Assembly: GCF_003704095.1 (NCBI RefSeq)
Contig: NW_020845872.1
Location: 1 to 64,000 of the forward strand
Origin: Pocillopora damicornis
Taxonomy: Eukaryota
Reading direction: 5' to 3'
DNA length: 64,000 nucleotides
In this document: one piece after another, positions 6,904 to 64,000 of the stretch
How positions within the stretch are numbered: position 1 is the first letter of the stretch
Layout of the letters: every line of letters starts with the position of its first letter
Made by a program: the position numbers and the translations under genes
The notes under the pieces: model-generated
Databases searched by the model: none
Told to the model about the DNA's origin: nothing
What the model saw: only the letters and a program-made list of their open reading frames with translations

Positions 6904-7732
6904 TGCATTCTTAGTCTTCCTCTGCAAACTAAAATCCTAAAATCACCAAAATTAGCGTGGTTCGAGATCGAGAACCCTGATAGATGGCGAATTATTTCCA
7001 TTTTTATCTGGAACCAAACGCTGTCTGCATATATCTTATGCTGAAGTTGGGGTCTGGTTCCTTTGGAGACGGTTATCACATCAACCCATTCGCTAAATTT
7101 CTACGAAAAATTCCTTTTTTTTACTGACGTTTTCGATTCTGGGCGTTGCCTGCCTGAACTATATTTCGTAAAGGCACGACGGGAAGGTGACCAAATGCAA
7201 CCATTTTTGGTAAGAGCATTCCGGAAAAATTGTAAAAACAATTGCCTCTACCAGCTCGTAAATCAGCGAAATTGAAATCTTCGTAAATGAAAATCATGTC
7301 AACTGGATTCTCCTTTATTGATTATGTGATTGGCAATGATCACCAGCTAAAAAACAAGTCGCTTTGACGATCACACTGGTACACTTTTCGAAAAGGGTCA
7401 GAAAACTGTTTATTCTGGCGTTCACTTAACAGTAATCTCCTACGTGAATAATGCTTGCGTGACAAGCCGAGAGAGCCCTGAGAACTAAATATTAGATTAA
7501 AAAAAGTACTTCCTTTCCGCGAAAACTACCAACTTTCAGGAGCCGCGAAATATTGGGTATTCTAATTCATCTTTACTCGAGGTTCCGATCTTCAGGTAGG
7601 GGTGACCGATATTTATGGTAAAATGTATTTGAACTAGTGTTTCAGTTTCGGATCATAAAATATAATCATCACATTGTGGGTGACACTGACAGATCGTATT
7701 TTTTCGTATTTTTCGCCATTAGATTGCTCGAG

Positions 7733-25774: not shown

Positions 25775-26576
25775 ATGGCTGATCAGGGGGATATAACGCT
25801 GTATGTGAAGGTACTGCACATCTTCTGGAGTGTATATTTTGAGTTTTTTGGTGATGGCTTGTTCACTGATCATTTCGTTTGTCGTCCAACAGGCCTCGAC
25901 CATCAATGATTCAGAGTTCGGAGCGGACGTTTTTGCTCAGAGGTTCATGATGATGTTTGTCTTGAAAGATGTGCGGGTCAACATCCGCCTCGTGGATGCG
26001 ATTAAGAGTAGAAACATGAAAAAATTACCAGCTTTGAAGCTATTTGAAAACGACCCTGTGGAGGATCCCGCGGAAATCGAGGCCTTGATCGAAAAAATCT
26101 CTCCCGATCATCCATTGCGAAGCGCGAACGACGAAGTAAACCATCTTGTGTTTAAAGGTGCTGGTAGTGGAGTTTACCACAAGTTCAATCAGCTGGCGAA
26201 GAACACAGACCCAAACACAGATGAAAGGCTTAAAGCGAATCTTATAGAGGAACTTGCAGCGCTCGATACCTTTCTTCGTTCGAAAAAGCCCCAGAGATTT
26301 CTCGGTGGCGAAAATTTATGTCTTCCCGACTGTATCTTGCTTCCCAAATTGTTGCACATCAAAGTGGTGGCCAAAGTCTTCAAAGATTTTGATATTCCCG
26401 AAGATTTCGAAGGCATTCATAAGTACTTGGATGCAGCTAGTGGCAAAGAAGGAGAAACTCCAGATATCAATGTCGAAGCGTTCACAAGAACCTCGCCATC
26501 AGATGAAGTGATAGTAGATGCCTGGTCTCGATGGATGAAGGTTCCCAATCCTCTACAGAGGCGAAAGAAGCCTTGA
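25775..26576 (+). CDS. CLIC-like protein, paralog 2, EXC-4/Drosophila-Clic-like N-terminus (exons 25775-25810, 25893-26576)
   Basis: MADQGDITLYVK|ASTINDSEFGADVFAQRF.., RFLGGENLCLPDCILLPKLLHIKVVAK, FTRTSPSDEVI. Confidence 0.88.
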
Positions 26577-41965: not shown

Positions 41966-42319
41966 TCACGTTTTTCCTCTCGCCTTTTTCATTCTTCTGG
42001 GGGGAGGTTTCCTCGTCCTTCCTATTTTGGCCAACTGTTCTTCGATGGCTTTCCTCATATCGATGTAATCAGGTATCTGAACATATCGAATCTGTCTTCC
42101 ATGAATAAACATAGTCGGAAAGTCCACTACATCACCACCGTTTCCTTTAGTAAACTTGACATCTGACATTCTGACATTCATAAAACCATCAACATTTTCA
42201 ATCAGTCCTTCAGCCGATGACTCGTTTCGTAATTCCACAATGGTCCTATGACCTTCCACAGCTTGTAACAAACAAACGAGGCTTCTTTCTGCCACAGCTC
42301 TCTCTCGACCACCCGCCAT
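41966..42319 (-). CDS. LSM10: U7 snRNA-associated Sm-like protein LSm10
   Basis: ERAVAERSLVCLLQAVEGHRTIVELRNES..G.IENVDGFMNVRM..FIHGRQIRYVQIP; single coding exon. Confidence 0.93.
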   Translation of the reverse strand: MAGGRERAVAERSLVCLLQAVEGHRTIVELRNESSAEGLIENVDGFMNVRMSDVKFTKGNGGDVVDFPTMFIHGRQIRYVQIPDYIDMRKAIEEQLAKIGRTRKPPPRRMKKARGKT

Positions 42320-42653
42320 TGTAAGAAGAAAGAGGGAAAAGATAACTTTTCAACCCTACTAGAATGTAAATGCAGACACTCTATTTATTTTCCTCAAGGC
42401 TCGTAAAATTTAGATCTGTTACAAGCCGAATTCGAGGAAAATTCGAAGTTCAAAAACAAGCAAGCAGAAAAGTGATTTGCTTCCCACCAATGAATCAAAT
42501 GGCGGGCTTTTTTTTTCTCGGGGAGGGGAGTGAGGGTAGGAACGAAAGGGTTTCGTATAAGTCACACAAAGGGTATCGTAGAGGTCAACAAATGACGGGA
42601 GGTTTTGGCTTGAAAGACTGAGCGTGAAAGTTTTAAATATTCGGCGAGCTATC

Positions 42654-45600
42654 ATGATCAAAGGAGAATTTGCTTTGAAAGAAGAGCTCAGAGGATTAGA
42701 GGAGAAGATGTTCGAAAAAATGGACGCTGAGCATCGGGTATTCTATGGTATTTGATATTTACGATCGGTGGCTGCATGCCATCTCCTCTTATTCATTAAT
42801 TAAGCTGCAAATTGTAACATTTGCAGCTCATTGAATGGAGGAGAGATTTCGGTTACTCCCATATTATTCTAAAACAAAGCTTTAGTCCCTAAGGAAATCT
42901 TTTGTTTTCTTTATTCAAGAACTGTATTCAAGGGGTTGTGAACAATGAAATTAAGTTGCGATTACGAAGATATATACCTTTTTACTATCAACCGACAGTC
43001 TCACCTTTGCCTATCCTCTTTGAAGACTTTCACCCCTTCCCCCTCATTTTTGTGGAGTTTCTGCACTTTTGTTATACATGCATTCAGAGTAAATGTAGAA
43101 GGGGTTTTTGCTGACATGGTGCTGATTGCTTTCATGAAATCTACTTATTATGCGTCAGAATTATTAGGAAAAATCTGATTGGTTTAGAGTATTCAATCAA
43201 TATACAATGGCATGTGAAGTTGACATTATTTAACAATTATTCCATGAACCCTCATTGGGTATGAGGCGATAGATAGTTAACAAGGCCTATAGAGCCCAGT
43301 TGGCTATAATCATCTCATATCCAACAAGTGCAAGTGGAATAATTGTTTCACTAAAAATGCCCTAAAATATAGATAAATCTTCACAACATTATTTTTTAAT
43401 AACAAATAGAATGCTACAATATACAAAATCACTTTTGGTTTAACTTGTCTAATGAAGGTGCACAGTATAATGGCTCATAACCTATGATAGTTAAGCCAAT
43501 GAAAGCTCTTGAATTGCATTATCCAATGATCCAGCTTTTAATAAAACCCAATATCTGCAGCAGATATTGCATTTATCATGTAGAGTTTAAAGTCTGCATG
43601 GTTTTCAAGTCCCTTGTCCATGTAGTGTTCTCAAACTTTTGGAAACTCAGAGAAACCTTAAATGGCTGAATGTCACGCATAATGAAACAAATATTGAGAT
43701 CTGTTTTGGCATGATATCATGACTTATCAAACAACATGTCTGTTTTACCTCAGACCTCAGTTTTGATAAGTCATGATATCATGCCCAACCTCACTCAATA
43801 ATATTACTTAATATAAACTTGAGAATAAAATATGATATTTAATGAACTTAAAACCTAATTATAAAATCAAGTTATCTTTTGATAGAGCTTAAAACAGTCA
43901 CATAGAGGTAGCCTTTCTCTCGAAGCTTCACATCACCATCTCATAGAGTATGTGGAACTTTTAAAACAAGGTAATAAAAAACACTACTGTATATGGTTTA
44001 AGCCTTAGAGTTACAGGTGATCATGTAATTTGATGTCTGTGTGTGAGTAGTCTGGAAATGGACCATTGTTGGTTGGAGTGAATGATGTTCAACAACCTTA
44101 TATCATTCATGATCAGACTCAGGTGAGGAGTTGTTTGCCAGTTGAATTAAAGTTTTGGTCGGCTTCGAAGTGATGTTATTGGCTTTAACATTCAAGTAGT
44201 GTAAGTCAGCTGAGATAAGTCAGTTTATCTGAATTCTTCTTAACTCAATTTTACCAGCAAATTTCTGGGAGATTCAACAGATGTCAAAGCCCAGAAATTA
44301 CTACTTAATATCACCTTACACAGGAAAATCCTTATTTTTGTTTACTTTCAACACACTTAACTAAAACTGGGATCTTAAAACTAGTTTCATCTATGAGAAC
44401 CTCCTCAGGTGATACCAAAAAATTGAAGCAGACCCTAACTGCTACGCATTTCCTTGTAAGTTAGTTATGAGAATTTGGTGTCAAATCATGATAACAACTT
44501 ATTCCTGATAAGTTTGAGTATTCTTATTATCTGTTAATCACTTCAGGGAGTTAGAGGATCAAGATGAGGCCTCAGCTAGATTATCACACTTGCTATGGCT
44601 TGTAAGAGTTAATGATGGAATAATCATGGTCTAAACTTTTTTGCTATGTTTTATTGTTTACCAGTGTTTTACTTTATTTCAGCAACTTTTATGAACCTTG
44701 ACATAAAGGAGTGGGTAATTGAAAATGACCTTCTTGTGAATCGCTTAAAAGTGAGTATTTCTTATTGTGGTATATATTATCATTTAACAAAATTCGCTCA
44801 GCTCACTTTGCAGGGAGGTCCCAATTTTGTAAAAAGTGCTAGAGAATTGGTCTCTTGTGTATACAACTTTCAGGAAGGTTTGTAACACTATGTAATGGTT
44901 CAAACTTTGTTGGATAAAAGCTGTGTTTAATTAAACATTTGATTGGTCAGTGTTGCTTTTCATCTCATTGAATCAAAAAGGAGGATGGCAGTAAAGCATC
45001 AGTTCAGAATGTTCTGGAGAGTTTCACCTCTCTGTTGGAAAGAGTCCAAGGTGAGTATTTTCCAACTAGTCTATGTTTGTATTAGCTAAGATATGAGAGG
45101 TTTAAATTTATCAAGATCTGATTTATTACTGCAACAAAACATCACTTTTTTATTCTGTTGAAAGGTATTCCCATTTCATAAGATTTCCCAAGTTATTTCC
45201 CAATTATGGGCTTGGTGGGTTCATTTTTCCAAACACAGATTTATTCTTCATCTGTTACTGAGTCCTGGAGGATGCAATGGTCAAATGGTGAGGTGGACTC
45301 TGGAGCCATAGTGTAGATTGAAGCCCCAATTTACCTGCCTTGTGTTGTAAAAGACATTATTTTGAAGTACTGAAAATATCAGTGTCTCTCCACCCAAGAA
45401 TGAATTGCCCTATTATTGAGCCATGGTGAACATTTTGTGACTGATTTTCCCCTTGTTGTAGTAATTTGTACTACAACTGCATTTAATTACTAAAATCTGA
45501 AAGATGTCAATGGGCTATGCAACAATTTCCTTCTTACTGTAATCAATCATTCCCCATTCCTTCATACAGAAAAAAAGGCAAACCAGTCCAAATGCTGGCT

Positions 45601-48600
45601 GTTAATCACAGACTTATCCTACAACAAGTAAAACTATTTTTACCTTTTTATAGGCCTTCCACCAGATACGGCATTCATTTGCTATGAACAAGCAGTTGTG
45701 TATAATTTGTGCCACTTGCTGTTACAAGGCCAGATGAATGTGAGCATTGGAGGTATTCACAAAAGTGCTGCCATACTCCACCAAAGCATCTGTAGAGGTA
45801 TGTACGCATACCAGAATTTACAGTGTTTTACAAACTCAAAAATATATATTTATTATTCTACACCTGCAGAATTAACACCTTGTGAGATCAATTGAATTTC
45901 TGTCTCTTTTCAGGGGTTAAACAAGTTTGAATTTTATATGCTTATAACTTCAAAGCTAATTTTTTTCTTGATCCCATCCTTCCTCCATAATCTCTTCCCT
46001 CACTTTTGGTTGTACCAACCAGATTTGGTTCATATTTGTTTCTTCAACATGTGCAGCACTTGCAGCATTCAGAATAGAACCTTGTCACCAAGGGGAAGAG
46101 GACTTTAGCAACATACATCTTTTTGGTCCAGCAAACATTGAGTGTACTATAGACTCACTTCTACCAGCATTGTTTAAGGAATTGATCAAGAGATCTATTG
46201 GGTGTGGCCCCTTTGTGTTGAGTTGCTGCCTTTTAGCATTTCAGTGGCTAATTGATGAGAAAGGTGAGTATTCTTTGATAATCAGTTGGTCCATCTGTGC
46301 TTAGCTGTGCCTGTGTTATCTGTTTGTTTGCCTCTTTAACTTTGAGACTCAGTCAGTCAGTGTCTCTAACTATATATGTATGTCTACCTGTAGGTCTTTT
46401 TGCCTAATAGTTTGTTTGTCTGTCAGTCTGAAAACCTCTGCAACCATAACTTAAAAATTTTATCATTCAATGTTTTTTTTTTAAAATAAGATTAGGAAAA
46501 TCATTGTGAAAATTTTATGATACACCAAACAAATGCAGTGACAGTTTTAAGAGAAAGCTAATGGGTAAAAGAATTTCAAACTAGCATGAATCATTTCTCT
46601 GTCAGTGAGGGAAATTCAAGGCCTATTTGATACCTTTTTCCTTTAGTGAACCAGGCTGTAAAACTTCTTTACCTGATGCAAAGTCAGTTGAAACTTGTGG
46701 ATTCAAACATGAATTTTACTGATGAGGTTTGTAACAGCATTCAATTTGGCAAACATTTTATAAAAGCTCATGTTGATCACTTAGATGTACTCTGTTATGA
46801 ACTTAAATAAATTAATCATCATTTTATGTTGTATCTAAGGTATCTGAGATTCCTCCACATTGTTTACAGAATGAAATGACCAAAAGTAATAATGCCTATA
46901 ACCTTTACTTAATATGCAGTGGAGAATTAAAACTTCCTTTTTCCATTTTCTGTCAAAAGGGGAACCAAAATTTATACATAGGTACTGTTAAAGTATATAA
47001 GCATGAAAGAGGCAAAAACATTTTGTAGCATTTTAATAAAGTTACTATATACATATTTTGTCTAACAATTTTGAATCAAATCTTGTTTTGAAGCATATCT
47101 GGCCTATCTATGAATTGAAGTTGCTAAGAAACTAAAGTTATAAAAATTGTTTTTAAGTTTATCACTTTTTTTCTGCACACTTGGGATGACAACTTCACTA
47201 TTGCCTTTCCCTTGAACACCATAATCTCCTCTAATGCCACCAAATAAACTGAGATGATTTAAATGTTACAGAAGAAAAAATTGGGTAGAACAGACACTGT
47301 CTAGTTCTTACTTATTTTAAATTTTTTATTCATTTGATTGATCATTAGGTACCTGCTGATCGGCTTCCTGTATGCCTCTTCAGTTTAGAATACAGCTCAT
47401 CAATTTCTAATAGTGTAATCACTTCCTCTACCCACTCAACCAAAGACTTGACAGGCAAGATAGCATATTCAGATTCCTATAGTTGTTATTTTAGTTACTG
47501 TTTTGGCTAGTAATAATAATAATAGTGATAATTTAGGGCTTGTATCGTACAGATTAACATGTAAGTAAGATAAAATGCGTGTTACATAATAATCCCAGTG
47601 GCCATAAACGAAAACATGTCAAAAGTTGAGGTAGTGCTTTCTGGTTGTATTCCTCAACAGATATACAGAGTCTGTTGTCGGTGGTGACAAGTCTGTTGGC
47701 ATTTGCCCTCTTTGCAAATAAGGAATACGAAAAGGCACTGGAAATACTGAGGGGCAAAGAAAATACTCATGATGTTGGTTTTCATGATCTCTATCTCAAA
47801 GGTTTGGAGTCTTGGTGTATTGATTTAAAGTCAAAATGCAATTAATTAAAAAAAAGGAAGATGTGTTTTAGGCAGTTGAAAGACTCTTTTCCTTGTCTAT
47901 AACCGTCATATGATTGGAGAGTACAGCACAGGGGCTTAAGTACTTGTGATTTTGTTGTTATGTATGGTTGCAGGATACATTCTCTATGAACAAAATCAAG
48001 TGGACAGTGCACTGACATGCTTTCAGGAGTGTTTATCCATCTCACAAGAACAGAACAGAGCTGCGACTTTGAATATGCTAGGGTGCTGCTGTGCAGTCAA
48101 GGTAGATGTTTTAAGTAAAAGATCGAATTGACATGAAATATGCGCTCTTTAGTCTGTGAGATTTTGATTCCTCTTACCCTGATGTTGTCGTTTAACAATT
48201 CATTGTTATCTTTATATCTTTCCAAGGGTAAACATCACACTGCGGTAGCGAAGTTCAAGGATGCCCTGGAACACGATTTCCAGCAGCTGGAGGCTCTTTT
48301 TAACATTTCTCTTCAATATCAAAAGATGGACAAGTTTGAAGCGCAAATAAAAGCTCTTGAACTTTTAAAAGAGGTATGTTTAAAATTTAAAAACAGTTTT
48401 ACTAGTTGTGTTTCCTTATGCCAGAGCAGACATAACTGCACTGGAGAGTGAAGTGTTAAAACAGCTAGCTTGCGAGCTGCCCTAGCTCTTAGCGCTGCAA
48501 GACGTGTGTTTCTCCGCCTTACGGAGAGATCTGTGAAAAGCCGGGGAGAACTCGCTTTGCCGGAGATCTGCAAACCTCTCGCCGCCTGGCTGGCTTTGCT

Positions 48601-51600
48601 TCTTAAGGCCTCAAACTTTTCGACGAAGAAATGCTCGTTTAAATATAAAATCTTAACGGTAGTAAAATGAGATTTTCAACTCAGTCATTGGAACCAAATT
48701 GTATCTCAGCAAATCAGATGCAAAACTAAAAATAATCGCGACTTGGTCACTGGCGTTTCCTTGTGCCTTAAGAAGTTTTCTTGTTTACGCATGGAGTTTT
48801 CAATGGCCAGTGACAAAGTTAACCTTTGTTTTGATTTGGTTTGGTTTTCGACTCTTAATTGAAAACTGCTCCATCGTGGAAGGGAAATTTATAAGCGTAT
48901 TCTCTATCTATATTTGTTTGTATTTTTAGGTCATCAAGGCTAGACGGTGTGAGCCACAGACTTGCCAACACCTTGTAGTAAGTCCTCGAGATCACAGCAG
49001 AGAACACAGTAAAGGTAACCTAGGTAAGGGCTTGAGCACTTTCACTCCAAACATCTCAATGTCTATTCTTCTTACTGTCTTCTATGAGCCAACTAACTAA
49101 GCCGACTACTCTTAGGTTCATTAAATACACAATTCTTTTGAAATTTTGTTCCTCTAGATGTGGAATTATCCGTTCCTCCAAGATTTTCCTTGGGCAGTTC
49201 GAAGTCAAGTGCTCGCATGTCAAACGAATTGGTTACTTACATACTTGCGAAAAGATATTCAGAATTAGGAAGGTTTGAGGGATTTTCTAAATAATCTGAT
49301 TTTCCAAGAAGTCTGAAATTCATTTTTCGTTTATAGACGGCATTTATCGTCACAATATATCATTATTGTTATTAGATATAATTTTCCGTAGCTGGACGTC
49401 ATTTATCGTCACTAAATATTATTTACCTTCTCTACACGTTATTTGCCTTCGCTTGACATTATTAATGGTCATTACATGTTATTTCCCGTCAGTATACGTT
49501 GTTTATCATCGTTTGCCGCCACTAGACATTATTAATCGTCGGTACCCATCATTTTTCGTTTGTAGACATCATTTGCCGTCTCTAGACATTATTTACCCAC
49601 ACTACACGTTATTTGCCTTCGCTAAACATCATTTACTGTTACTTCATGTTATTGATCGCCGGTCAACGTCATTTTCCGTCTTTACATGTTACTTACCGTC
49701 GTTATACGTCTTTACCTTTACTAAGAATCATTTATCGACAGCACACATTTTCTGTCACTTGACATAATTCACAGTCATCAGACAACTTCTCGTCACTCGG
49801 CAAAATTTACCTTTACCTCAATCTGTCGATTTTACTTGGTTAATCAACACCAACGTACCCACAGTTCTCGTATGAAAGTAACTTCCTCGTGCGTTTTTTA
49901 TGGTCAACAGTATCTAAATACATACATATCTTTTGCTAGGTTCGAGGAAGCAGCGACGAACTTTCTGGAGTTGCTGGTCAATATTGTAGAAGTGCGCACC
50001 TCCAACTTTGTAAGAATGTCATAAATTTCTCGTTCTCACTGATATTTTTGTTTGAAATGCGTCAGTTTTAAACCAGCTTATTTATTCCGGTACATTTTCA
50101 GCCGCAAGCTCATAAAAATGGTATAATCTCGGTTCTCATCTCCTTATTTCGCAAATGTTTTCAGATTTAGGCTTTTTTTCATCTCGATGTAAGGCATGCC
50201 CAGTTCTTGTTAAAAATACGATCAACAATCATTGTAACACTTCTTCATTCTTAGCGGCCGAACGTCCAAAATCTTCCCAGTCCTACCGAGTTGTATAAAA
50301 ATTGTGCATTTGCGCTGTCTAAAGCTGGGAGACATGAAGACGCGGTGACAATTTGTGATAAAGTTCTTACTTCTATCGAGCATGGAGAACCTACTGAACA
50401 AGGTATGTAATTGGTGAATTGGGCTTGTGATAGGTTTTCTCTGCAAAAGAGGTTTACTGAGACAGACAAATATGACAAGTGTTACCTTTACAATTTTCAT
50501 TTCCAACTGCACCCATGTCAGTATTTGGAGATCTTTCGCCTACATAATTTCATCTTCGTCACTGCACTTTGAAAATAGCGAACTGGTCTTCCGCCGACCA
50601 GTTGTGGCTAGAGAAAATGTTTTGTTTATTTGAAGTGACTCATATTTTCGATTTATGATAGCTAGCAGCTTTAAGCCCGAACTGTGTACTTTGTAAAAAC
50701 TTTCTTTGTCTACTCCCCTCTAATTCCAGTGTCTGCTGCTAGGAGCTATCAGAGGCACTGCCAGCCTGTACTCCACCCCAACCCCACCCCTGAATGAAAG
50801 TTTGTCTGTCACAGGTTACTCCAGGAATTGACTCTACTTTGTTTTTGCCTTCAAAGGTCACAACGATGAAATAAGAGTCAACGATAAAGCTCCTAAGAAA
50901 AGGCTGCGATCAGATGACGGGGAAGATTATTTGAGCACCTTCAATAGCGAAACGGTGTCTGACAACATACAAATGCTTATGTTGAAATCAGAGTCATTGG
51001 TTCATCTTCAAAAACCACTAGAGGCCTTGCAGTCTCTCAACAGGTATTGTGAATTCTTCTTTAAACGTATGCGACGTAATTATATTTCGTCTTGCTTCGA
51101 TGCAGCGTACTTGGAGAAAACAGTCAAGTTTTAGTGACCGTGAACTACATTAAGTAGAAGAACTGAAGGGAGACATCTACCGTGAGTGAAAGTGATCCTC
51201 GCAGTAATGTGCACTACTTGGGCAGTAGTGAAAGTAAGGCCTGAAAAAAATTCAGGCCCGTACGGGATTTGAACCCATGACCTCTGCGATACCGGTGCAG
51301 CGCTCTACCAACTGAGCTAACAAGCCAACTGGGAGCTGGTCATTATGTTGGTTCCAAATAAACCCGTGAAGTGATGAATAAACAGTTAAGAATATATGAA
51401 AGTCACTATTTTCACTACTGCCCAAGTAGTGCACATTATTGTGAGGATCACTTTCACTCACGTCTTTATCCGCAGTTTAAATATACGACTTTCATATATT
51501 CTTAACTGTTGAGACATCTACCGTTAAATCGTTGTATAGGCCTCCAGGCCCATTCTTTAGGCATTCTTGTAATCAAAACCACATACGGTATGACAGATTA

Positions 51601-54272
51601 TCATGATAATGCGCCGAAGAACGTCATGAACCAATTAGAAGAACCTTTGGTAACAAGCGTTGGATGTTTGCGAATAGTTTCTGATGTTATTAATTGCTGA
51701 TAAAACAAAAATTATCCTGACGGGTTAGACAGGGTCCACAAGCATTGTATTCTTAGGAGCAATCACAGAACTCTGCCATAGAAAGAAAAGCTTCTCATCT
51801 AACTTGTGCAATACACTTGCCAAAATTATCTTAGGGTACTGGTCGCACTGGAAGATGTCCAGTTAGTAAAAAATCAAGAAAGAATCCAAGGCCACAAGGA
51901 TAATGATGGACAACAGAGGAAAAGGAGAAAGCTCGACTGCGGTAAGTTGATAAGACTTGTTGCAAAAATACGGGACGCGGTAAGTGCCAACTGAACTGAA
52001 GTCGTTCATGTACCTCACGTTTGACGCGCAGTTGAATGTGAAGTAATCTAAGAACCTCTGTTGGTCGACAGAGTGATAGTTGTTGAGTCTGTTGAATGTA
52101 TATGGTCCTAGTTAAGTTTTCAGCGAAACCTTTTCTGTTAATCCTTTGAATTTTTTTTCTTTTATCTCTTAAAAGGAGACAATGTTTCGTGTGAGGAGCA
52201 AAGCGAAACTGACAACTCAAGAAGGCCTGCTAGAGTAAAGGTGAGTATACAATATTTGTTTAGCAAGGTGAGTCAAACTTTATTCGTAGAAGGTAACTAT
52301 TTGGCGTCATCTAGGTTAACACTGACTTTGCCTCCCTGGACAACTGCAAACGGCCAAATAATGGTTTGTTAAAGGTGCCTTTCAGAAATTCGAATACACA
52401 TTAGCACAGGCCTGCATGCTTGACACGCGCATGAAAAACTCGCGGAAAGCAAAGTTAATTAGAATGTTTGAGTTCGCTTATTGTCCGCCTATTCTAGTTT
52501 TTTCTCGTTACTTTTGATTGCTTTTTTTTGCATCATTTCTCATGAAATATATTGTACGTGTCGTGGTAATATGCCAGATCATGAAAGAATTTAAATGTTT
52601 GTGTCAGATATGTAGTGCCACTATTTGGACCGTGCGATCGACCTACTGCCTGCCTGGCTGTCTTTATGTTACTGTGTGTGTTTTCTTTCCTTTCAGGTCC
52701 AAGCGTACAATCAGAAGGCTTCTATTCTAGATGAACTGGGTCAGACCCATGATGCCTTGCATCAGTTGCATCTCAGTTTGGAGTGTTTAGCAGGTATTTT
52801 GTATAACCAGCATCAGGTGTGATGTTAAGTGTTTACTTTTGGCCTTTTCTTTAACGGTAGTGAGAATATGTGGTAAACAGAGGTATTGATGGAGTGAACA
52901 ATAATGGCTTCACAAATGGCGCCAGCTCTGACCAGAGTCTCACGAGCACCGTACTTCCCCATATCGAACCGGATAAACTTTCAGTATATTAAAAGAAAAG
53001 TTCAGTGCATATTACAGAGGTGGAGAGGGAAAGTCTGCTATACTGATGAGGCCTGGTAAAGCTAAAACGGTTCTCCGTGGCTGTTAAAATCTTGATTGAT
53101 TTTGATTTTGATCTCGTTCTTGGGCTCCTGAGTCTCGAACATGAACGCCTTATTGCGTGTTTTGTGGTCGCAGCTAGCCAACCCCAATAAGAGCGCTATT
53201 CGATTGAGTGTCGGCATGGTACAGAGAGCATAGTAACTTCCTTTCCTTTGAAAGGAAAGGAAAATTTGAACGCAGACTGAATTCGTTTAATCGACCGCGG
53301 GAAATTGCAAGAAACCAAGTCGCGACTTTTCCTTATTAGTCACAGAGCGCAGTAAAGGAAAAGCAATACAATCACGGATTTCTTTCAAAACTCAATTGGA
53401 AAATGCTCTAACTTTCCCACACTACAACTTTCCTTATTCTTTCAATTCGTTAGAACATCCTGAGACAGTTTATAAGCATACGCGGTTGCTCCTGAAGCTT
53501 GGTTCAAAGAAAGAAGCAGCACACAACTGGCTTCAATTCCGAGGTGTCCTTCTTCACTCGCACAAAGGGGACCTGGATTCCCTTTGGAAAGTACTCCAGT
53601 AAGCTTTTCACTCCTGAATCCTTTGATTATTTTATCCAGCAAGGGTACGGAATTGAAGAGTGAGTCCGTTGCGTAGTGTAGTGATTGTTTGAGAGGAAGA
53701 GATGGGACAGAGGTTTTTCCTTTAAACGAATTGTCGATAATACTGGTTTTCATGTGTTGGGCAAATCATAGACGATCGAGGATTTCACTGGTTCACGACC
53801 GTCTCAGATTTGTCCGACAAATGAAAACTCCGAAACCGTAGAGATCCCCGATTGTCTGGGATGGTCGGCGACAAATCGGGAACGTTACTATTTTTCCGAC
53901 GCGTCCCAGATTTCTGTGATGATCGGCGATCACTTCAAACTTCAATTTTTGCCGTTGGGGACGTTTTAGCTCGCAACCAGTCCTCTAGTTGCCTAGCTCT
54001 AGTACCCCCGTGTGACAAATAAAATTTAATATCCAAAGAATCTTGGACAAACATCTGACCATCTCTTGAAATATCAGCAAAATCTGGGTCGGTCGAGAAA
54101 CAGTGATAAATGAATGACAAAAAATTTTTTGTTTTTCAACAGTTCATCAACAACAAAGTTTCTGGAAAGTGACGTCAGCAACGAGCAAGTCCGAGAACTA
54201 GACGAGTTGATCTTGAATTGGTTGAGCGAGAATAAAGAGCAAAATGTCTTTTATCCACATGCCAGGGTTTAA
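42654..54272 (+). CDS. FANCG: Fanconi anemia group G-like TPR protein, about 19-20 exons (start exon tentative; alternative ATG near 44691)
   Basis: LDIKEWVIENDLLVNRLK and LERVQGLPP..YEQAVVYN resemble the FANCG N-terminus. TPR-like exons at 47974-48100, 48226-48373, 50254-50402, 50857-51042, 52697-52793 and 53454-53598. Last exon 54143-54272. Confidence 0.72.
43226..43545. mobile_element. Hairpin-type non-autonomous repeat in intron
   Basis: Inverted arms AACAATTATTCCA..TGGGTATGAG..ATAGTTAAC and GTTGGCTAT..CTCATATCCAA..TGGAATAATTGTT. Confidence 0.6.
49320..49810. repeat. Highly degenerate short-period tandem repeat (GACATCATTTACCGTC-like)
   Basis: Recurrent ACAT/ACGT-YATTT-CCGTC variants. 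This explains the low-quality ORF 49366-49767. Confidence 0.6.
51184..51510 (-). mobile_element. tRNA-containing short retro-element with 14-bp target-site duplication
   Basis: GAGACATCTACCGT at 51170-51183 and 51511-51524; internal tRNA-like unit and two pairs of inverted repeats. Confidence 0.85.
51254..51326 (-). tRNA. tRNA-like (pseudo-Thr, GGT) unit inside the repeat
   Basis: A box TAGCTCAGTTGG, B box GGTTCAAATCC, pairing acceptor stem GGCTTGT/ACGGGCC, loop CCGGTAT (C instead of U33), T7 terminator just downstream. Confidence 0.55.
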
Positions 54273-54719: not shown

Positions 54720-54960
54720 CCCAATCAGAATTCATGAAAGATCGCCTCTTTCTCGGAATCCTAAATTCCGAGAATGTGATTGAGTTTCCTAGAAACGTGA
54801 GTAACGCAGGAGCCCGTTACTTTGGTAATGGGCCCCTGACTGACGTCAATGTTTAATATGCCTCGATAACCAATCAGCTTGCAGATTAATCGCTTCACAG
54901 TAAGGTCATTCTGTCATGTAACTTGTTTTCCGCTCTAGAGTGAAAACTTTCTCAGAAATC
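54720..54960 (+). promoter_or_regulatory. TENT paralog A upstream region: 4 GAS (TTC-N3-GAA) sites, CRE, CCAAT boxes
   Basis: TTCTCGGAA 54750, TTCCGAGAA 54766, TTCCTAGAA 54786, TTCTCAGAA 54949; TGACGTCA 54841; CCAATCAG 54721 and 54870. Confidence 0.65.
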
Positions 54961-55096: not shown

Positions 55097-57587
55097 ATGG
55101 CTAGTTTCAACTTCAGCTCGAGAGGTGATCATTATCATCAACTAAGCGCACAAATTCAGCAAAAGTTTCAGGATAATCGTCAAACGAGTGAAGTATTTGA
55201 TCGGAAGAATCGATGGAGAAAGGAAATTGAAGACTTAGTGAAGACCCTTTACCCGTCATGTCGACTCGTTCTTTCCGGCTCGTCCGCAAACGGGTTTGGC
55301 AGCATTCATAGTGATATCGACCTGGTTTTGTGCTTTGAAGGGGCAGCAGTGACTGGACCTTCCATGTTGAGGAGAATAGAGTCGCTTTTTGCGAGTAACC
55401 GTCGTCGTTTTCAAACAGAGGTAGTACCACACCTTATGTGAGTTGCATAATTTTTATAAATAATACGAGCAATCAGGAAAATATCCGCTCGTATAATGCA
55501 TAAAACCATGAGATAAGGGACTTGTTATTCCCCTGCCATTTCATTTTATAATATTTTGACTTCCAGTTTTTTTAAATACATACGGTCTAATCTTGTGCAC
55601 TGTATGGATCACATAACGCGTGTGTGAAAGACGAAGGCAACACAAACGAAACCATTAAGAGTTCTTGATGACTTATAAAAGAAACTGTTGCCCCTAATAG
55701 TTCCATGCACGAAATTTCGAGCCTAAAACACGGAAACAAATAAAAGATTGAATCGTTTAGCCGGGGGCCATTTTGTTACTCCGCTTTCAGTCCGCATTTT
55801 TGCCCCGTGCCATCGCATATTTTGCGGGTTCTATGGTCCTTATTTGGTGAAATGGTGTAACTGTCGAAGAGTATGTAATAGTATTTGAGCACAGCTTGAA
55901 TGTCCGCGACTAAGACAATCAGATTCCTACGTAAGATATGCATGACAAACTAGTACGTCGTGTCTTTTCCCGCGTTTTGAAACACTTTAGATTATGATTT
56001 AATTTTTTGTTTGTGGGTTTCCTCTATAAAGCATCAAAAATGACTCAGGGGGAGATCAAAGAAAAAAACTGGTTCTTCTCTTTCGTCATATTGATCAGAA
56101 TTTTTAATTCGAAGCTTCCTCAACGTGTCTTTCACTTCGGTTTCTACCGATCCCGAGGTTAGATTGTGCTTTAATCTTTAACCTAATTGGCATACGCAAG
56201 AGAATATCAAAAGTTGATGTTCTCTCGGCAAACGATATAATTTTTATTAAAACCAATTTCAAGATGGTGTCAGCGCCGAGTGAGAGATATTTTTGATTGA
56301 AAAAAAAAAACTAGACAAGTAAACATTTGATATGCAGCAGTAAATTTTTTTAAAGTCAACTTTGAATTTTGAACAATCCCCAGGTGATTCCAAACGCACG
56401 AGTTCCTATCATCAAGCTCAAAGATAGGGAGAAATCAATTGAAACTGATATCAGTGTGGAAAATTGGACCAGTGTGAGAAACGCCTTCGTTCTAAAATGT
56501 TACTCCGAGTGTGACACAAGGGTGAGACCGCTGGTCATGGTCATCAAACTGTGGGCTCAACGTGCAGGAATCACCGATGCAAAACTCAAAAGACTTGCAG
56601 GTACGAAATCTGCCGATTGTTAAAAAAGTGGCGGATTTGAGGTTGAATAAAGGGGGTTAATTTCTAGAGAAAATTTTGGTGCTGCGTGGGGGGATCTTTC
56701 AAGACAATTTGGTGTCATCAACCGAATTGACATTATAAACTGGCCACCGTAAAGAGTTTCTTTTGCTAACGCTTGCAACGTCAGCTATATTAAACTCTTA
56801 ACGGTGGTCAATTTACATTATCAACGCAGTTGATAAAACCACATGATCTGATGAAAGGTTGACTGGTTTGACTCGTTTACAAGCTCAATAATACAAATAA
56901 AAAAAAAGTCCCTTCATTTTAGTTTAGTTATGTGTAGCTTTTCACATATCACGATGCGAGTAACATATGACTGACTCTTACAAGACAGGCAGACATGTAA
57001 AGCTTGTAACTTAGACCAAAACGCGTAAGAGAGAGAAAAATGAAAATTTACAGAAACTAAACAGGAAAAAAGTATAAACTGGTCTACCTTTGAGCTGCTA
57101 GGATCTCCTTTTATATGTCGATTCTTCTTAATATTTAGGTTTCGCCGTGGTTCTTTTGGTAATCCATTATCTTCAAGCAGGATGCTCCCCTGCTGTTGTG
57201 CCTGCCTTGCAACAAATGTTCCCTGCGGTCTTCCAAGCTTCTAACAGTGTGATCATTGACAAGCTTACCTCAGATATTCCTGCTGAAATACAAGCCTTCA
57301 GTTCCGATAACAAGCAGAGTCTTGGTGAGCTTCTGGTTGGCTTCTTTCAGTACTTCTCCACCTTTAACTGGAGTAGAACCATGTCGATTCGTTCTGGAAA
57401 TACCCGACCGACTTCGACGTACGACAAGATATGGCGGGGACCTTACATTCGCCTAGAAGATCCCTCAGATGGGGGTAACGTCACCAGATCCGTGTATGAT
57501 TCCTACGAGTTCTCACGCATAAAGAGTGCGTTCAGTAGCGCTCTCTCGAAGTTGAGAAGCAATCCGTCTTTGGAAGAAATCTTGTAG
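55097..57587 (+). CDS. Cid1/GLD-2-family terminal nucleotidyltransferase, paralog A, 329 aa (exons 55097-55420, 56384-56600, 57139-57587)
   Basis: SGSSANGFGSIHSDIDL, ARVPIIKL, third Asp in ETDISV, D.RVRPLV..IKLWAQ, PAP-associated domain SLGELLVGFFQYF..IRLEDP. Confidence 0.92.
56648..56842. mobile_element. Decayed copy of the palindromic Penelope-derived element
   Basis: Homologous to 31523-31769 (TAAAGGGGTTAA..TGGTGCT; CCACCGTAAAGAG..CTCTTAACGGTGG); hammerhead core partly deleted. Confidence 0.6.
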
Positions 57588-58137
57588 GAATCCGAAGAAG
57601 AAACTGACGTAGATCCCTACATTGTTCCAACTAATTTCAATTTTTGCCTTACACAGTAAAAACTCGCTAAAAAACCCTAATTTTGCTATTAGAAACTAAA
57701 TAAGTTCTTCACTAGAGCCATTTTCGTGTTCAGAAAACTAGAGAAAAATAAGGTTACTGAAACTGCTTAGAGTTACAATGTGAAAACTTTAGATGTCATT
57801 TACAGGAATAATATGGGAGAATGACATTGTGAATTGAATGGAAGAATGGAAAAAGAAAAGAAAAGAGAAGAAAAAACGATAGAGAAATGGTTGAAGCTGC
57901 TGGGGCTCGAACTATAGATCTTCGGAATTAACAGGAGTACGCACTCACTATCTATTGTGCTAGGTACGCAAAGCGTACATAAGTATTGTATCAAAATACA
58001 TTTGATACACATTTTATACATGGATCTTTTCTATGAATTTCCCACCCTGTCCCTAGCCCGTGAATTGACCAGTATACAAACTCTGTTCTAACCAAGTCCT
58101 CCTTTTGACAAATTTTGGCATCGACGAAAGCTGTTTC

Positions 58138-58274
58138 AATAACCTGTTCATTAACCTGTTCATTAAACTGTTCATTAACTTGTTCATTAACCTGTTCATT
58201 AACCTGTTCATTAACCTGTTCATTAACCTGTTCATTAACCTGTTCATTAACCTGTTCATTAACCTTTTCATTAA
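58138..58274. repeat. 12-bp tandem repeat (TTAACCTGTTCA) x about 11
   Basis: Direct inspection; no spacers. Confidence 0.95.
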
Positions 58275-59299: not shown

Positions 59300-60827
59300 T
59301 TAAAAAATGTCTTGTAGAGATGCCTTCTGTTCCAGCTGAGTTGAGGCAGATTGAAAGGCATTCTTTATGCGTGTGAATTCGCTCGAGTTATACACGCCCC
59401 TTGTGACATTTCCTTCGTCTGTCGGATCTTCCAGCTTAATATAGGGCCCACTCCAAACTCTTCCATACCGTGAAGTTGGCTGAGTATTTCCCATTCGAAC
59501 AGATATGGTTTTTTTCCAATCAAAAGAGGAGTAGTACTTGAAAAACTCGATCAGCAACTCACCAACGTTTTGCGTGTTCTTGGATTTGTGTGACTTTACT
59601 TGGGGAGGAGCGCTGCCGGTGAGTTTTGATATGACATCATTTTCTGTTGATCGGAAGAGCTCTGGGAAATCTTTTTGGAGCGAGGGGAGGACAGGGGGAG
59701 AACATCCGGCTTGTAGGTAATTAATGACAAGTAGCACAACTGCAAAACCTGTGGACCAAAAAATTGAGCTATAGTGAGATATTAAACCTTTACCATGGAA
59801 TAATTAAATCAAGCACAAGTTTTAATGAAAAAATATTGCAAAATACCAGGGATTTAATAGTCTTCATCCTGACTTCCACAATAAAAGGTACATTTCCTAC
59901 CAAATTAGGATGCAGCCTCACCCTCCCCCCTGCCCTCTTCTTGGTATTAGAAGGGCACTTACGAAATTGGTAAGAAACGTAGTCGGTGAAGAAAGAAATA
60001 AACTTATTACGAGGAAAATTATAAAGCCGTCCGTGGTTTCTTAGAGGTAATTCGATAAATTTTCCAACAATGAATACAAGTTCATCTATATCGGTGTAAA
60101 AAGCATAACGAATAGAAAAATATCTTTCTCAGGCATTACCAGCAAGTCGGTGTAATCTTGCGTTGGTAATCTCAGCCTTCTGAGCCCACAGTCTGATAAT
60201 GACAACCAGAGGTTTCACTCTTGGATCGCACTCGGAGTAACATTTCAAAAGGAAAGCGTTGCGAACATTTGCCCAGTTGTTGACGGAGATGTCAGATTCA
60301 AAAGACTTTTCCTTGTCTTTGAGTTTTATGATTGGAATTCTAGCGTCGGTGATCACCTGCAAAAGTTATGTTAGCCTTCGTAAATGTTAAAACACTTCGT
60401 TACACATAGCTTCACTTTAATTAATATTTAATTAAAGTTTGCATAATTAATCTTTTTCAAAAAGGCTTTCTCAGCGAGACAGTGATATTGTCTCAATAGA
60501 TTGAAAAGACCTCACCCTTGTTTCAAAGCGTCTGGGTGTCCTGGTGAAAAGCGATTCTATTCTTCTTAACATGTAAGTTTCTGCATCTTCCCTGCTTTTA
60601 GCAGTCAAAATGAGATCGATGTCGCTATCAGTGCTTCCGAATCCGTTGGCAGAAGACCCGCACAACACAAGGCGACAGCTAGGATAAAGCTCTTGGATAA
60701 TAAGCTCCATTTCCCGCCGCCATGAGTCCTTTTGATCATAAATTTTTGGCGTTTGTTGGTTTGCTGAAAATTTCTCTTGAATCTGACAGCTCAATTGAGC
60801 GTCTCTATCAGTGTTTTCATTAGCCAT
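59300..60827 (-). CDS. Cid1/GLD-2-family terminal nucleotidyltransferase, paralog B, 325 aa (exons 60827-60516, 60356-60140, 59748-59300)
   Basis: CGSSANGFGSTDSDIDL, ARIPIIKL, ESDISV, IKLEDP. Intron positions and exon 2/3 sizes (217, 449) are identical to paralog A. Confidence 0.92.
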
Positions 60828-60914
60828 AATTATCGACCCAAATCTGAGTGAAAATGAATGAAAAATAAGCCCTCGGGTGACCACAAAGTTGTTGCTTACT
60901 AGAGAATTTGTGTT

Positions 60915-61015
60915 TACTTCGACGAAGTTTCAAACGTTTTCTAAGAAAACGCAATATCATCCGTAAACAATAAAATTCCCAGAAATGCCGCGCATTGTTA
61001 ATTGTGATTGGTCCA
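60915..61015 (-). promoter_or_regulatory. TENT paralog B upstream region: 3 GAS (TTC-N3-GAA) sites and a CCAAT box
   Basis: TTCGACGAA 60918, TTCTAAGAA 60939, TTCCCAGAA 60976; ATTGG near 61007. Confidence 0.6.
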
Positions 61016-61346
61016 TTACTATGTAAATTCTGACATCCTGTTTACAGAGTGTTCTAGAGTTTAATTCATTACTCGAACTCACCCGCTGAAAATGCTTAAT
61101 AAATTCAGGTTATTGTTCTTTACCCGCTCTGACATTAGCAAAATAATTAAAATAATTTAGGTAACGATTAGGAATATCAATTTTAAAAGTATTCAGTCAA
61201 TGAGTCTGAAACAGTACGAGGAAATATGACATCCTTTTTGGTGGTTTTAACGTGCTGTGGCTGTCACCATATCCTCAATTGCGAACAGTTTTACATGGAA
61301 GAATAACACTAGACATTCTAAACAACTCTATCCGTCATCAGAGATA

Positions 61347-61660
61347 CAGTGGAATCTGTATTAAGCGGTCGCTTGTTAAAGTCCCGAAATTTTTCCTCTC
61401 TAAATACGTCAATTTTCACTTTAATCTCTCGAGTCAAATTAGTATTCCATGTTTATCTCCCGAAATCGATGCTAGCACTGTGAATTCAAGTATCCTCAAT
61501 ACTTTGTAGGTCATCTTTCTACTATGGACTGTTAGGACAAATGTGACACACGAACATCACACAAGCTATTTGCGGATCAACTTGTATTGAGTCCGTAAAC
61601 CTGTAATAAACGGTCACCTGGCCATTCCCTTAGGGAAACCGCTTAGTACAGGTTCGACTG
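61347..61660. mobile_element. Tc1/mariner-pogo-type MITE with TA target-site duplication
   Basis: TA|CAGTGGAATCTGTATTAAGCGG ... CCGCTTAGTACAGGTTCGACTG|TA. Confidence 0.8.
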
Positions 61661-62464
61661 TAACTTTCATCGAATATTTAAATCTTACTCGGATAAAATG
61701 TTTATTACTGAGAATTAGAAAATCAGTTTCGAACTCTTCATTCTTAATTAACGCTGCGAAATTTGAAAGAACGAAAGTTGAATCAAGACCTTCACTTTGA
61801 TTATCGTTTGGTTTGCTGTCTGGTGTTTGATAAACGACTTTTTTTTTACAAACCTATTAACTATGATATTTAAGATTAACAAAAGTCAAATTGTGCGCTG
61901 CACCACAATGAATTGCCCAGACTTTATTCGTCTCCCTTATGTAATCATAGGAACTTACTCAAGTTACTTCAGTGAGGTCAGACATACCAAATACAAGTGA
62001 AGAGGCACTGGCCCGCTTCAACTAAACACGTTTACTCAGCATTTACAAAAAGATACTAAAGTAAGACGGAAAAATTAATTATAGAGATACAACGAGACAA
62101 AACTTACCAAATGATGAGGGAAATACTGGAAGGACGACACAATCGGGATTTAGAGAGAAGGAAAAAAACACAAACTGCTAGAAGGGGCGTGAAACATGAA
62201 GTATATGGGGCGGCGGGATTTACATAAGGCAAAACAGTAGTGAAAAAACGAAAAGAGTAAGCGTAAATTAATGGGTGCTAGATAAATAACATATGTGATT
62301 ATATTATATAATATATAGCAACAAGACTGTTGCTATATATTACAAAATTTCAATTGAATTAATCATAATAATATGAATAGCAATTATGTTTCGAGTCGAA
62401 ATTGATTTCGTTGTGATTGAGTAGTTTATCTCAAAGTGTACTTATTTATCTGATGAGATGTAAA

Positions 62465-64000
62465 TCAAAGAATACTTTCCAAAGACGAATTTCTATTCAA
62501 ATTGTTTGACGCAGTCTTGAAAGACTGTTTAATGCGCCTGGCTTCATACTCGTCAAACACGGCTCTGGTTACATTTCCTCCGTCCGTGGGGTCCTCGATT
62601 CTGATTTTAGGCCCCCGCCAAACCTTAGAATGCATTTTGGTGGGTTCCGTGTTTCCCGTACGAACAGAAATGGTTTCTGCCCACTGGAAAGCAGAATAAT
62701 ACCGGAAAAACGCCATTAACAATTCTCCAAGACTCTTCTCGTTTTTTGACTTGTACGTCTGGATTTGAAGTGGAATTTCATCGGTTAGTTGGTGAATTAC
62801 TTCGTTTTTTGACGTGTCTTTGATAAGTTCTGGGAAGTCTTTATGCAGTACAGGCAGGACTGGGGGAGCACAACCGGCTTGTAGGAAGTGGATGACCATG
62901 AGAACGATAGCAAAACCTAGACATGATGGAAAGTGGCAAGCAGCTAAATTTATTAAAGCATCACAGTTACATGCAGTAAGCATAACTACACATTCGAAGC
63001 GGGGGAATCCCAGAAGCGGCACAGGTTTATACGAGAGATCTTAATAGTCCACATGTCTCCTCACACATAGGCCCCCAATGCTAATAAACTTGTATCAATC
63101 AGGTTATAAGTTCCAACTGCTGTCTTTATAAAAAACAAATAACAATTAAAAAAGTCTCCAAGTTTCCGTGATAAAGGTTAATTCAAGTTCTTGTCAGGAG
63201 TCGCGGGTAGCGTTAGAGTATAGTTTGAATTACTCCAAGATACAACACAATACCCCCTTCGCTTACAGTCTTCTCATCCTTCTCTTCCGACCTTCAACAA
63301 TGTTAAATGCTTCTAGATACATTACCTGGAAGCCTCTTAAACTTGGCTCCGATAATTTGAGCCTTTTTCGCCCATAGTTTGATCACAATTGTCAACGGCT
63401 TCACTCTTAAGTCACACTCAGAGTAGCATTTTAATAGGAAGGCGTTCGTCAAGCTGCTCGAATTCTCCAAAGTGATGTCCGTTTCAAACGAGTTCTCTTT
63501 ATCCTTGAGGATAATTATGGGGTCTTTGGCATTTGAAACAACCTGAAAGTAGTTACAATTACTCTCTGTTAACTACGCCTTAGTTCTGTGGCCGTTTTAT
63601 AGATGTGCCATGTTCAATTATGTAGAATTACACTTTCTCGTTCTTTCAACGCTCTTTTACCCTTCTCTCCCCCCTCTCAAGGCAAAAATTGTAGATTGCA
63701 TTTTGTTTACTATATACAAACAGGAGCAGCTGGTTCAAACTGCTTCTTTTTTCTAATTGGATCACCAGGAGATCTACAATCTTCCGCCCAAATATCGTTC
63801 GATCCAAACAGCCACCATGAATGAGTATTTCTGGATTATACCAGAACGTGATATATAAAAAACAAACAGTGGATGCGGATATTTATGCGTGGCAATCATC
63901 TCAAGCTAAAAGAGATACCAAATTAAATTATCAATTGGTATAACAAACACTGATACCTCTGTTTCAAAGCGGCGAGGCTTGCGACTGAAAAGCGATTCGA
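62465..64000 (-). CDS. Cid1/GLD-2-family terminal nucleotidyltransferase, paralog C, 5'-partial (exons >64000-63957, 63542-63326, 62916-62465)
   Basis: ESLFSRKPRRFETE|VVSNAKDPIIILKDKENSFETDITLE..IKLWAKK..RLPG|FAIVLMVIHFLQ..IRIEDPTDGGNV; same intron positions as A and B. Confidence 0.88.

What the first reader, a model, noticed from the sequence alone, without database searches (positions are those of the whole stretch)
60918..60984. Separate triple GAS cluster upstream of TENT paralog B
TTCGACGAA, TTCTAAGAA and TTCCCAGAA lie 91-157 bp upstream of the ATG. The flanking sequence shows no obvious similarity to the paralog A promoter by eye, so the motif class appears retained while the context diverged, which argues for selection. 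It predicts GAS sites upstream of paralog C, outside the window.
Basis: partly seen in the sequence, partly recalled or inferred. Interest (0 to 1): 0.7.

Follow-up and report, generated by a model that had tools for sequence, protein, structure and literature searches.

The report
Conserved coral STAT-site promoter module
Three STAT-type DNA sites in front of a stony-coral RNA-tailing enzyme gene belong to a small promoter module kept, with its spacing, across several coral lineages and all three gene copies, which suggests that corals switch these enzymes on through STAT, probably in immune defence, although they have no interferon.

Summary
Observation confirmed. Three TTC-N3-GAA sites lie at 60918, 60939 and 60976, upstream of a minus-strand, three-exon, short GLD-2-like gene (ATG 60827). 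The window's only other triple sits before paralog A; two triples arose in 0 of 900 shuffles. 22 of 23 coral homologue loci with a located start codon carry 2-5 such sites within 400 bp; the exception has only 112 bp upstream. The layout CCAAT-GAS1-(34-37 bp)-GAS2-(about 20 bp)-GAS3 recurs across orthogroups A, B and C while synonymous sites are largely diverged. So the cluster is probably one inherited module rather than a separate one. All 7 C-orthologue loci keep GAS1 and GAS2; the window's own C promoter could not be read. The 60918 site is the weakest and decays in relatives. Best reading: a STAT-bound, immune-inducible promoter (about 0.65). A Nematostella gene named GLD2 is induced about 40-50-fold by cGAMP or poly(I:C). 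Against: that gene is linked by name only to a sister clade, Nematostella STAT knockdown did not blunt the cGAMP response, BCL6-type factors share the core, and no start site or binding was shown.

The parts
61007..61011 (-). CCAAT box 27 bp before GAS1
   Evidence: CCAAT lies 27-32 bp before GAS1 in 11 of 17 promoters, TCAAT in 1, absent in 5
60976..60984 (-). GAS1, read TTCTGGGAA on the gene strand; the most conserved site
   Evidence: 17 of 17 promoters read T-TTCT-[A13/G3/C1]-GGAA, followed by T in 16
60963..60969 (-). TGTTTAC between GAS1 and GAS2 (Forkhead-like; the label is recalled)
   Evidence: TGTTTA[CT] in 10 of 17 promoters; a variant at 60965 in one DNA run
60939..60947 (-). GAS2, read TTCTTAGAA on the gene strand
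   Evidence: present in 17 of 17; 34-37 bp after GAS1 in 16 of 17, 16 bp in window A
60918..60926 (-). GAS3, read TTCGTCGAA; weakest site, 12-bp spacer from GAS2
   Evidence: perfect in 10 of 17, one mismatch in 4, lost in 3; spacer 11-13 bp in 11 of the 14 that keep it
60905..60916 (.). site of an allelic 35-nt insertion with a 12-bp duplication, next to GAS3 on the gene side
   Evidence: one RNA-run contig (table 5c)
60516..60827 (-). paralog B exon 1 (ATG 60827; GSS and DxD motifs)
   Evidence: the 159-nt intron is skipped in contigs of 2 RNA runs
60140..60356 (-). paralog B exon 2 (third catalytic Asp)
   Evidence: the 391-nt intron is skipped in 2 RNA runs
59300..59748 (-). paralog B exon 3 (PAP-associated domain; GLD-2-like nucleotide-recognition loop); protein 325 aa
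54721..54957 (+). paralog A promoter module: CCAAT 54721, GAS 54750, 54766, 54786, CCAAT 54870, fourth GAS 54949
   Evidence: 24 of 24 core bases invariant across 5 A-group promoters against 52 of 364 other positions
55097..57587 (+). paralog A (exons 55097-55420, 56384-56600, 57139-57587; 329 aa)
   Evidence: 91% identical to Stylophora GLD2-B-like
62465..64000 (-). paralog C (exons 62465-62916, 63326-63542, 63957 to beyond the window end); promoter outside the window
   Evidence: both introns skipped in 2 RNA runs

Best explanation
The three sites are part of an inherited proximal-promoter module (CCAAT-GAS1-GAS2-GAS3) through which the coral STAT protein switches on a small family of short, catalytically intact GLD-2/TENT2-like RNA 3'-tailing enzymes, most likely during the innate (nucleic-acid-triggered) immune response. 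Shown: non-random clustering, conservation of sites and spacing in orthogroups A, B and C, spliced intact genes, a match to vertebrate STAT-bound sequence. Inferred: that STAT is the binder; that GAS2-GAS3 (11-12-bp spacer) binds two dimers cooperatively; that the coral genes are immune-induced; that the enzymes add adenosines. My odds: conserved functional cis-element about 0.95, STAT as main reader about 0.8, immune induction about 0.75; the last two are not independent.
For: Two triples in the window, both before TENT paralogs; 0 of 900 shuffles give two. 52 sites in 6,772 bp of 17 promoters against 44 in 65,355 bp elsewhere in the same loci; control spacers give 0-7. Centre Y-N-R in 44 of 52 promoter sites against 7 of 32 other window sites. 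Core bases invariant more often than other positions in alignments not anchored on the sites: A 24/24 vs 52/364, B 14/18 vs 80/233, C 12/18 vs 87/233. Four-fold sites 21-65% identical over 14-29 sites per pair. GAS1 of C-orthologue L022 shares 16 consecutive bases with the beta-casein GAS probe used in a STAT5 EMSA (passage of PMC2193267). STAT5 tetramer sites prefer 11-13 and 16 bp spacers (passages of PMC5673064). STAT, IRF, NF-kB and ETS motifs were found in Nematostella poly(I:C)-induced promoters (passage of PMC8476169). Nematostella 'poly(A) RNA polymerase GLD2' (gene 5513780): log2FC 5.6 in polyps and 4.7 in embryos with 2'3'-cGAMP; STAT itself 5.6 (supplement rows of PMC8713801). NVE21606 (GLD2 annotation): log2FC 5.2 at 24 h and 4.4 at 48 h with poly(I:C) (similar values).
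Against: Nematostella STAT knockdown did not significantly reduce cGAMP gene induction; the authors list incomplete knockdown as a caveat. Gene 5513780 is absent from the 13-row STAT-knockdown sheet and the 379-row NF-kB sheet. The Nematostella short GLD2 (P0127) falls in a sister clade with its own coral members and is 43% identical to B. Its link to the induced gene IDs rests on the shared name only; look-ups gave no mapping. No induction data for the coral genes were found; the Stylophora cGAMP study was not held. TTCCTAGAA, 19 of the 52 sites, is also the BCL6 core. RNA contigs run across the B cluster and the C-B intergenic region, so the start site is unmapped. The 17 promoters are phylogenetically related, some nearly identical, and aligners favour matching motifs, so the p-values overstate independence.
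Confidence: 0.65

Rival explanations
1. The sites are real STAT elements but serve non-immune signalling (stress, growth, germline or development).
For: Nothing here measures coral expression. The enzymes are closest to GLD-2, classically a developmental and germline poly(A) polymerase (own knowledge). STAT knockdown did not blunt the cGAMP response.
Against: Corals keep a separate long GLD-2 clade. The Nematostella GLD2-named gene has a low basal level (TMM 1-2) and rises to 41-73 with poly(I:C).
Confidence: 0.15
2. Another factor reads the sites: a BCL6/Ken-type zinc-finger repressor on TTCCTAGAA, or an ETS factor on the GGAA half, alone or competing with STAT.
For: BCL6 binds a TTCCTAGAA core and overlaps STAT5 sites; fly Ken blocks Stat92E targets (passages of PMC11507070). 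GAS1 is asymmetric and nearly fixed, with T after GGAA in 16 of 17. ETS/ELF genes are cGAMP-induced in Nematostella.
Against: GAS2 keeps TTC and GAA in 17 of 17 while its centre varies at all three positions. That fits a palindromic dimer binder and is not explained by a fixed 9-mer or a GGAA half-site. No cnidarian BCL6 was looked for here.
Confidence: 0.12
3. The sequence acts at RNA level, in a long 5' leader or a read-through transcript from paralog C.
For: RNA contigs of two studies cover the cluster (one piece spans 60514-61319). Contig L001 joins C exons to spliced B, and L035/L036 join spliced TPR exons to A exon 1.
Against: Conserved blocks are DNA palindromes with fixed spacing next to a CCAAT box; folding is unremarkable (z = -1.94, 8 of 200 shuffles); no Rfam match there. 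A spliced A-group contig (L002) begins 112 bp before the ATG, downstream of GAS1-3 (one contig end, a weak hint).
Confidence: 0.05
4. Chance clustering or neutral carry-over from a recent duplication.
For: The motif is short and its overall count is at background.
Against: A and B share only 3 of 14 four-fold sites yet both keep the module.
Confidence: 0.01

Closest known systems
Vertebrate GAS elements, in particular the beta-casein STAT5 site and tandem STAT5 tetramer sites
   Same: TTC-Y-N-R-GAA palindromes; 16 bases shared between L022 GAS1 and the beta-casein probe; GAS2-GAS3 spacer of 11-13 bp in 11 of 14.
   Different: Found in a lineage without interferon (PMC8713801); the most conserved pair (GAS1-GAS2) has a 25-28-bp spacer, outside the preferred tetramer spacings; binding untested.
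Nematostella cGAMP / poly(I:C)-induced gene programme (PMC8713801, PMC8476169, PMC13319465)
   Same: STAT motifs reported in induced promoters in aggregate; a GLD2-named gene is in the induced lists.
   Different: In the passages read, no GLD2 gene is discussed and no individual GAS module is described; STAT dependence was not demonstrated; the window's genes belong to a sister clade.
GLD-2 / TENT2 cytoplasmic poly(A) polymerase
   Same: Best solved-structure match (6lbk, E 5.8e-53); GSS, DxD and third Asp intact; nucleotide-recognition loop of GLD-2 length.
   Different: Only 325-334 aa, without the long N-terminal region; a separate hexacoral clade (100/100) apart from the long coral GLD-2.
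Antiviral terminal uridylyltransferases CDE-1 and TUT4/7 (10.1101/209114, abstract read)
   Same: Same enzyme superfamily; precedent for 3' tailing as antiviral defence.
   Different: The coral enzymes are single-domain and GLD-2-like, so A-adding is inferred rather than U-adding; here the control looks transcriptional through GAS sites.
BCL6 / Ken binding sites
   Same: TTCCTAGAA core in 19 of 52 sites.
   Different: GAS2 varies freely in its centre; no cnidarian BCL6 was tested.

Membership tests
STAT-responsive GAS promoter | TTC-N3-GAA palindrome with 3-bp spacer (not N2 or N4) | tested here: met
   52 N3 sites against 7 N2 and 3 N4 in 17 promoters
STAT-responsive GAS promoter | High-affinity centre (TTC-Y-N-R-GAA) | tested here: met
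   44 of 52 vs 7 of 32 other window sites; met by GAS1 and GAS2 of B, not by the 60918 site
STAT-responsive GAS promoter | Evolutionary conservation above flanks | tested here: met
STAT-responsive GAS promoter | Position upstream of the transcription start | tested here: inconclusive
   only contigs available; RNA contigs overlap the cluster; L002 begins downstream of GAS1-3
STAT-responsive GAS promoter | STAT binding and STAT-dependent induction | not testable with these tools
   published Nematostella knockdown was negative, with caveats
STAT tetramer (tandem GAS) element | Two sites 11-13 or 16 bp apart | tested here: inconclusive
   met for GAS2-GAS3 in 11 of 14 that keep GAS3; GAS3 lost in 3 of 17; not met for GAS1-GAS2
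Heat-shock element (nGAAn repeats, 2-bp spacer; definition recalled) | TTC-N2-GAA arrays | tested here: not met
   no N2 triple in the window; 7 N2 sites in 17 promoters
GLD-2/TENT2-like nucleotidyltransferase | Palm plus PAP-associated domains with three catalytic Asp | tested here: met
   PF22600 + PF03828; motifs; for C the first two Asp lie outside the window and come from relative P0004
Canonical long GLD-2 orthologue | Groups with bilaterian and long coral GLD-2; long N-terminus | tested here: not met
   separate short clade, 100/100, midpoint-rooted tree
GLD-2/TENT2-like nucleotidyltransferase | ATP specificity and RNA substrate | not testable with these tools
   inferred from loop similarity only

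The most novel reading that the evidence does not exclude
Stony corals run an interferon-free STAT regulon with vertebrate-style, cooperatively spaced GAS enhancers, and one of its conserved direct outputs is a hexacoral-specific family of minimal GLD-2-like enzymes that tail viral or immune RNAs as an inducible antiviral effector.
Probability: 0.3. Interest if true: 0.82.

Novelty: new variant of a known kind. Interest (0 to 1): 0.62.

Why it matters
Which transcription factor drives the interferon-like gene programme of cnidarians is open: STAT and IRF knockdowns in Nematostella were negative with caveats. This module is a compact (about 100 bp), naturally replicated element, kept in three gene copies across several coral lineages, that can serve directly as EMSA probe, reporter and mutagenesis target for that question. 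It also points to an inducible family of RNA-tailing enzymes that appears in supplementary tables but not in the passages read of the source papers.

Tried and rejected
No genome is held, so the paralog C promoter of this species could not be read. Two DNA contigs run 495 bp past the window end but their letters were not given. Scans of prokaryote genomes and viral contigs found no relatives. Of 47 metagenome loci, 23 had a located start codon, 1 began inside exon 1 (L041), and 23 lacked a usable exon-1 match or were distant relatives. 8 of the 23 were dropped before counts as duplicates or too short (L002, L014, L023, L024, L025, L033, L034, L036). No promoter of the sister clade II (Nematostella type) was obtained. 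Contig depth was not used to rank expression. No variant inside the three 9-mers appears among the 40 rows shown, but 88 rows were hidden, so this is not evidence; one variant touches the GAS2 flank (60948) and one the TGTTTAC (60965). The exon-1-only tree placed the C-like protein ambiguously; full-length trees resolved it. Mapping of Nematostella gene IDs to protein P0127 failed. JASPAR IDs were not found in the stored, cut supplement of PMC8476169. The large supplements of PMC13319465, which hold the Stylophora-Nematostella comparison, could not be read and may bear on coral induction. Whether cnidarians have JAK was not settled. Heat-shock element and RNA-structure readings were rejected. 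Three look-ups of earlier findings returned nothing. Literature searches for a prior description (cnidarian, STAT binding, GAS motif, antiviral, promoter; GLD2, coral, immune) listed none, within an open-access library only.

Full report
Observation. The three 9-mers are at 60918, 60939 and 60976. The gene they precede is on the minus strand with its ATG at 60827, so on the gene strand they read TTCTGGGAA (GAS1, 60984-60976), TTCTTAGAA (GAS2, 60947-60939) and TTCGTCGAA (GAS3, 60926-60918). The window's total of 39 TTC-N3-GAA sites is ordinary (shuffle mean 31.9). The clustering is not: only two triples exist, here and at 54750-54794 before paralog A. Markov shuffles gave one triple in 3-4 of 300 and two in 0 of 300 at each of three orders; other spacer lengths and the reversed motif gave none.

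The genes. A (plus strand, 329 aa), B (minus, 325 aa) and C (minus, cut by the window end) are three-exon genes with GT-AG introns. The introns of B and C are skipped in RNA contigs of two studies. They carry PF22600 and PF03828, intact GSS, DxD and third-Asp motifs, and a nucleotide-recognition loop of GLD-2 length. The best solved-structure match is GLD-2. B exon 1 is identical over 80 residues to named Pocillopora proteins, so this is a pocilloporid coral. In a full-length tree the short proteins form a hexacoral clade (100/100) apart from long coral and bilaterian GLD-2. It splits into the window's group (A, B, C; 94/96) and a sister group with Nematostella, Actinia and further coral copies (100/97) (midpoint root). 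C pairs with an Orbicella protein at 100/100; A groups with Stylophora, Oculina, Porites and Montipora proteins at 100/100.

Conservation. One scan of metagenome contigs returned 47 loci. In 23 the start codon could be placed; 22 carry 2-5 GAS sites within 400 bp, and the other (L002, a spliced contig) has only 112 bp upstream. By orthogroup that is 8 A, 7 B and 7 C loci. After dropping 8 duplicate or short loci, 15 loci plus the two window promoters hold 52 sites in 6,772 bp, against 44 in 65,355 bp elsewhere in the same loci; control spacers give 0-7. The layout is shared: CCAAT 27-32 bp before GAS1 in 11 of 17; GAS1 as T-TTCT-[A/G/C]-GGAA in 17 of 17; GAS2 34-37 bp later in 16 of 17 (16 bp in window A, apparently a 20-bp deletion); GAS3 19-23 bp further in 14 of 17 (perfect in 10, one mismatch in 4, lost in 3 C-group loci). 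TGTTTA[CT] lies between GAS1 and GAS2 in 10 of 17. The A group adds a second CCAAT and a fourth site. In alignments of whole upstream regions, core bases are invariant at 24 of 24 (A), 14 of 18 (B) and 12 of 18 (C) positions, against 52 of 364, 80 of 233 and 87 of 233 others. Four-fold degenerate sites in exon 1 are 21-65% identical on small samples. These promoters are related and some nearly identical, so they are not 17 independent trials. Synteny is kept: the TPR gene precedes A in L013, L030, L035 and L036, and C precedes B in L001.

Selection on the motif is supported. But the shared layout, and weak masked similarity through intermediates (B vs L029, 4 of 200; A vs L029, 0 of 200), indicate one inherited module. 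The C prediction holds in orthologues (7 of 7 for GAS1+GAS2) and could not be checked in this species. The 60918 site is the least conserved part.

Who reads it. Fixed TTC and GAA halves with a variable centre, and Y-N-R centres in 44 of 52 sites against 7 of 32 elsewhere in the window, fit a STAT dimer. GAS1 of L022 shares 16 consecutive bases with the beta-casein GAS probe of a STAT5 EMSA (one passage of PMC2193267; 11 papers hold the string, listing only). STAT5 tetramer sites prefer 11-13 and 16-bp spacers (passages of PMC5673064); GAS2-GAS3 has 11-13 bp in 11 of 14, whereas GAS1-GAS2 does not fit. The main rival is a BCL6/Ken-type factor, whose core TTCCTAGAA (passages of PMC11507070) makes up 19 of 52 sites. 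It could compete at GAS1 but does not explain GAS2.

When it acts. No coral expression data were reached. In Nematostella a gene named poly(A) RNA polymerase GLD2 rises by log2FC 5.6 (polyps) and 4.7 (embryos) with 2'3'-cGAMP, and STAT by 5.6 (supplement rows). NVE21606, annotated GLD2, rises by 5.2 and 4.4 with poly(I:C) (5.2 and 4.3, independence of the two data sets not checked). STAT motifs were reported among poly(I:C)-induced promoters. Against: the Nematostella short GLD2 is in the sister clade (43% identical to B) and is tied to these IDs by name only. STAT knockdown did not significantly reduce cGAMP induction, and the gene is in neither the STAT- nor the NF-kB-knockdown sheet. RNA contigs overlap the B cluster and the C-B gap, as they do at A and B in relatives, so the start site is unmapped; read-through from the upstream gene is the likely cause (inference).

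Mechanism proposed. A nucleic-acid or cyclic-dinucleotide signal raises and activates STAT; STAT dimers occupy GAS1 and GAS2, with GAS3 adding cooperative binding, beside a CCAAT factor; the short GLD-2-like enzymes are induced and tail RNA 3' ends, either marking viral RNA or stabilising defence mRNAs. Antiviral tailing has precedent in CDE-1 and TUT4/7 (abstract). Everything after the sequence conservation is inferred.

Novelty and verdict. GAS promoters are a known kind, and aggregate STAT-motif enrichment in cnidarian immune genes is in print. A specific spacing-conserved GAS module on a coral short-GLD-2 family was not found in searches (listings of an open-access library). Papers seen: passages of PMC8713801, PMC8476169, PMC13319465, PMC5673064, PMC9980059, PMC2193267, PMC6723221, PMC11507070, PMC3296744 and 10.1101/2025.11.22.689925; supplement rows of PMC8713801, PMC8476169 and PMC11251625; supplement searches without hits in PMC12530282 and PMC12768352; the abstract of 10.1101/209114. 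Real, conserved, testable: new variant of a known kind, interest 0.62.

Noticed in passing
window 44000-54270 (+): Multi-exon TPR-repeat gene ending just upstream of the paralog A promoter; synteny kept in L013, L030, L035, L036. A public Stylophora model (P0056, 971 aa) fuses it to A, probably an annotation artefact.
   Followed up: partly
window 59300-64000 (-): A public Pocillopora model (P0066, 664 aa) fuses paralogs C and B, although C has a stop codon and B its own promoter module; likely an artefact of read-through.
   Followed up: partly
window 60905-60916: One RNA-run contig carries a 35-nt insertion with a 12-bp duplication right beside GAS3, which looks like a small mobile-element insertion allele.
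   Followed up: no
proteins P0114, P0116, P0117, P0127, P0022: A second short GLD-2-like clade in corals and sea anemones, sister to the window's genes; its promoters were not obtained.
   Followed up: partly
window 63326-63542 (-): Paralog C has Asp in 'NAKDP' where close relatives have Val; P0066 shares the Asp.
   Followed up: no
window 51254-51326 (-): tRNA-like match inside a TPR-gene intron, probably the head of a tRNA-derived SINE.
   Followed up: no
window 58135-58274: 12-bp tandem repeat, 11.7 copies, between the convergent 3' ends of A and B.
   Followed up: no
window 22845-23582 and 25854-26576 (+): Two adjacent single-exon GST/CLIC-like genes; no GAS triple near them.
   Followed up: no
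window 29369-29400: A pair of TTC-N3-GAA sites 23 bp apart, not assigned to a gene.
   Followed up: no
window 600-8400: A duplicated block with two near-identical ORFs (2045-2749, 7733-8371) and EGF/PAN-like exon fragments (by eye).
   Followed up: no
window 41966-42349 (-): ORF that looks like an Sm/LSm-family protein (by eye).
   Followed up: no
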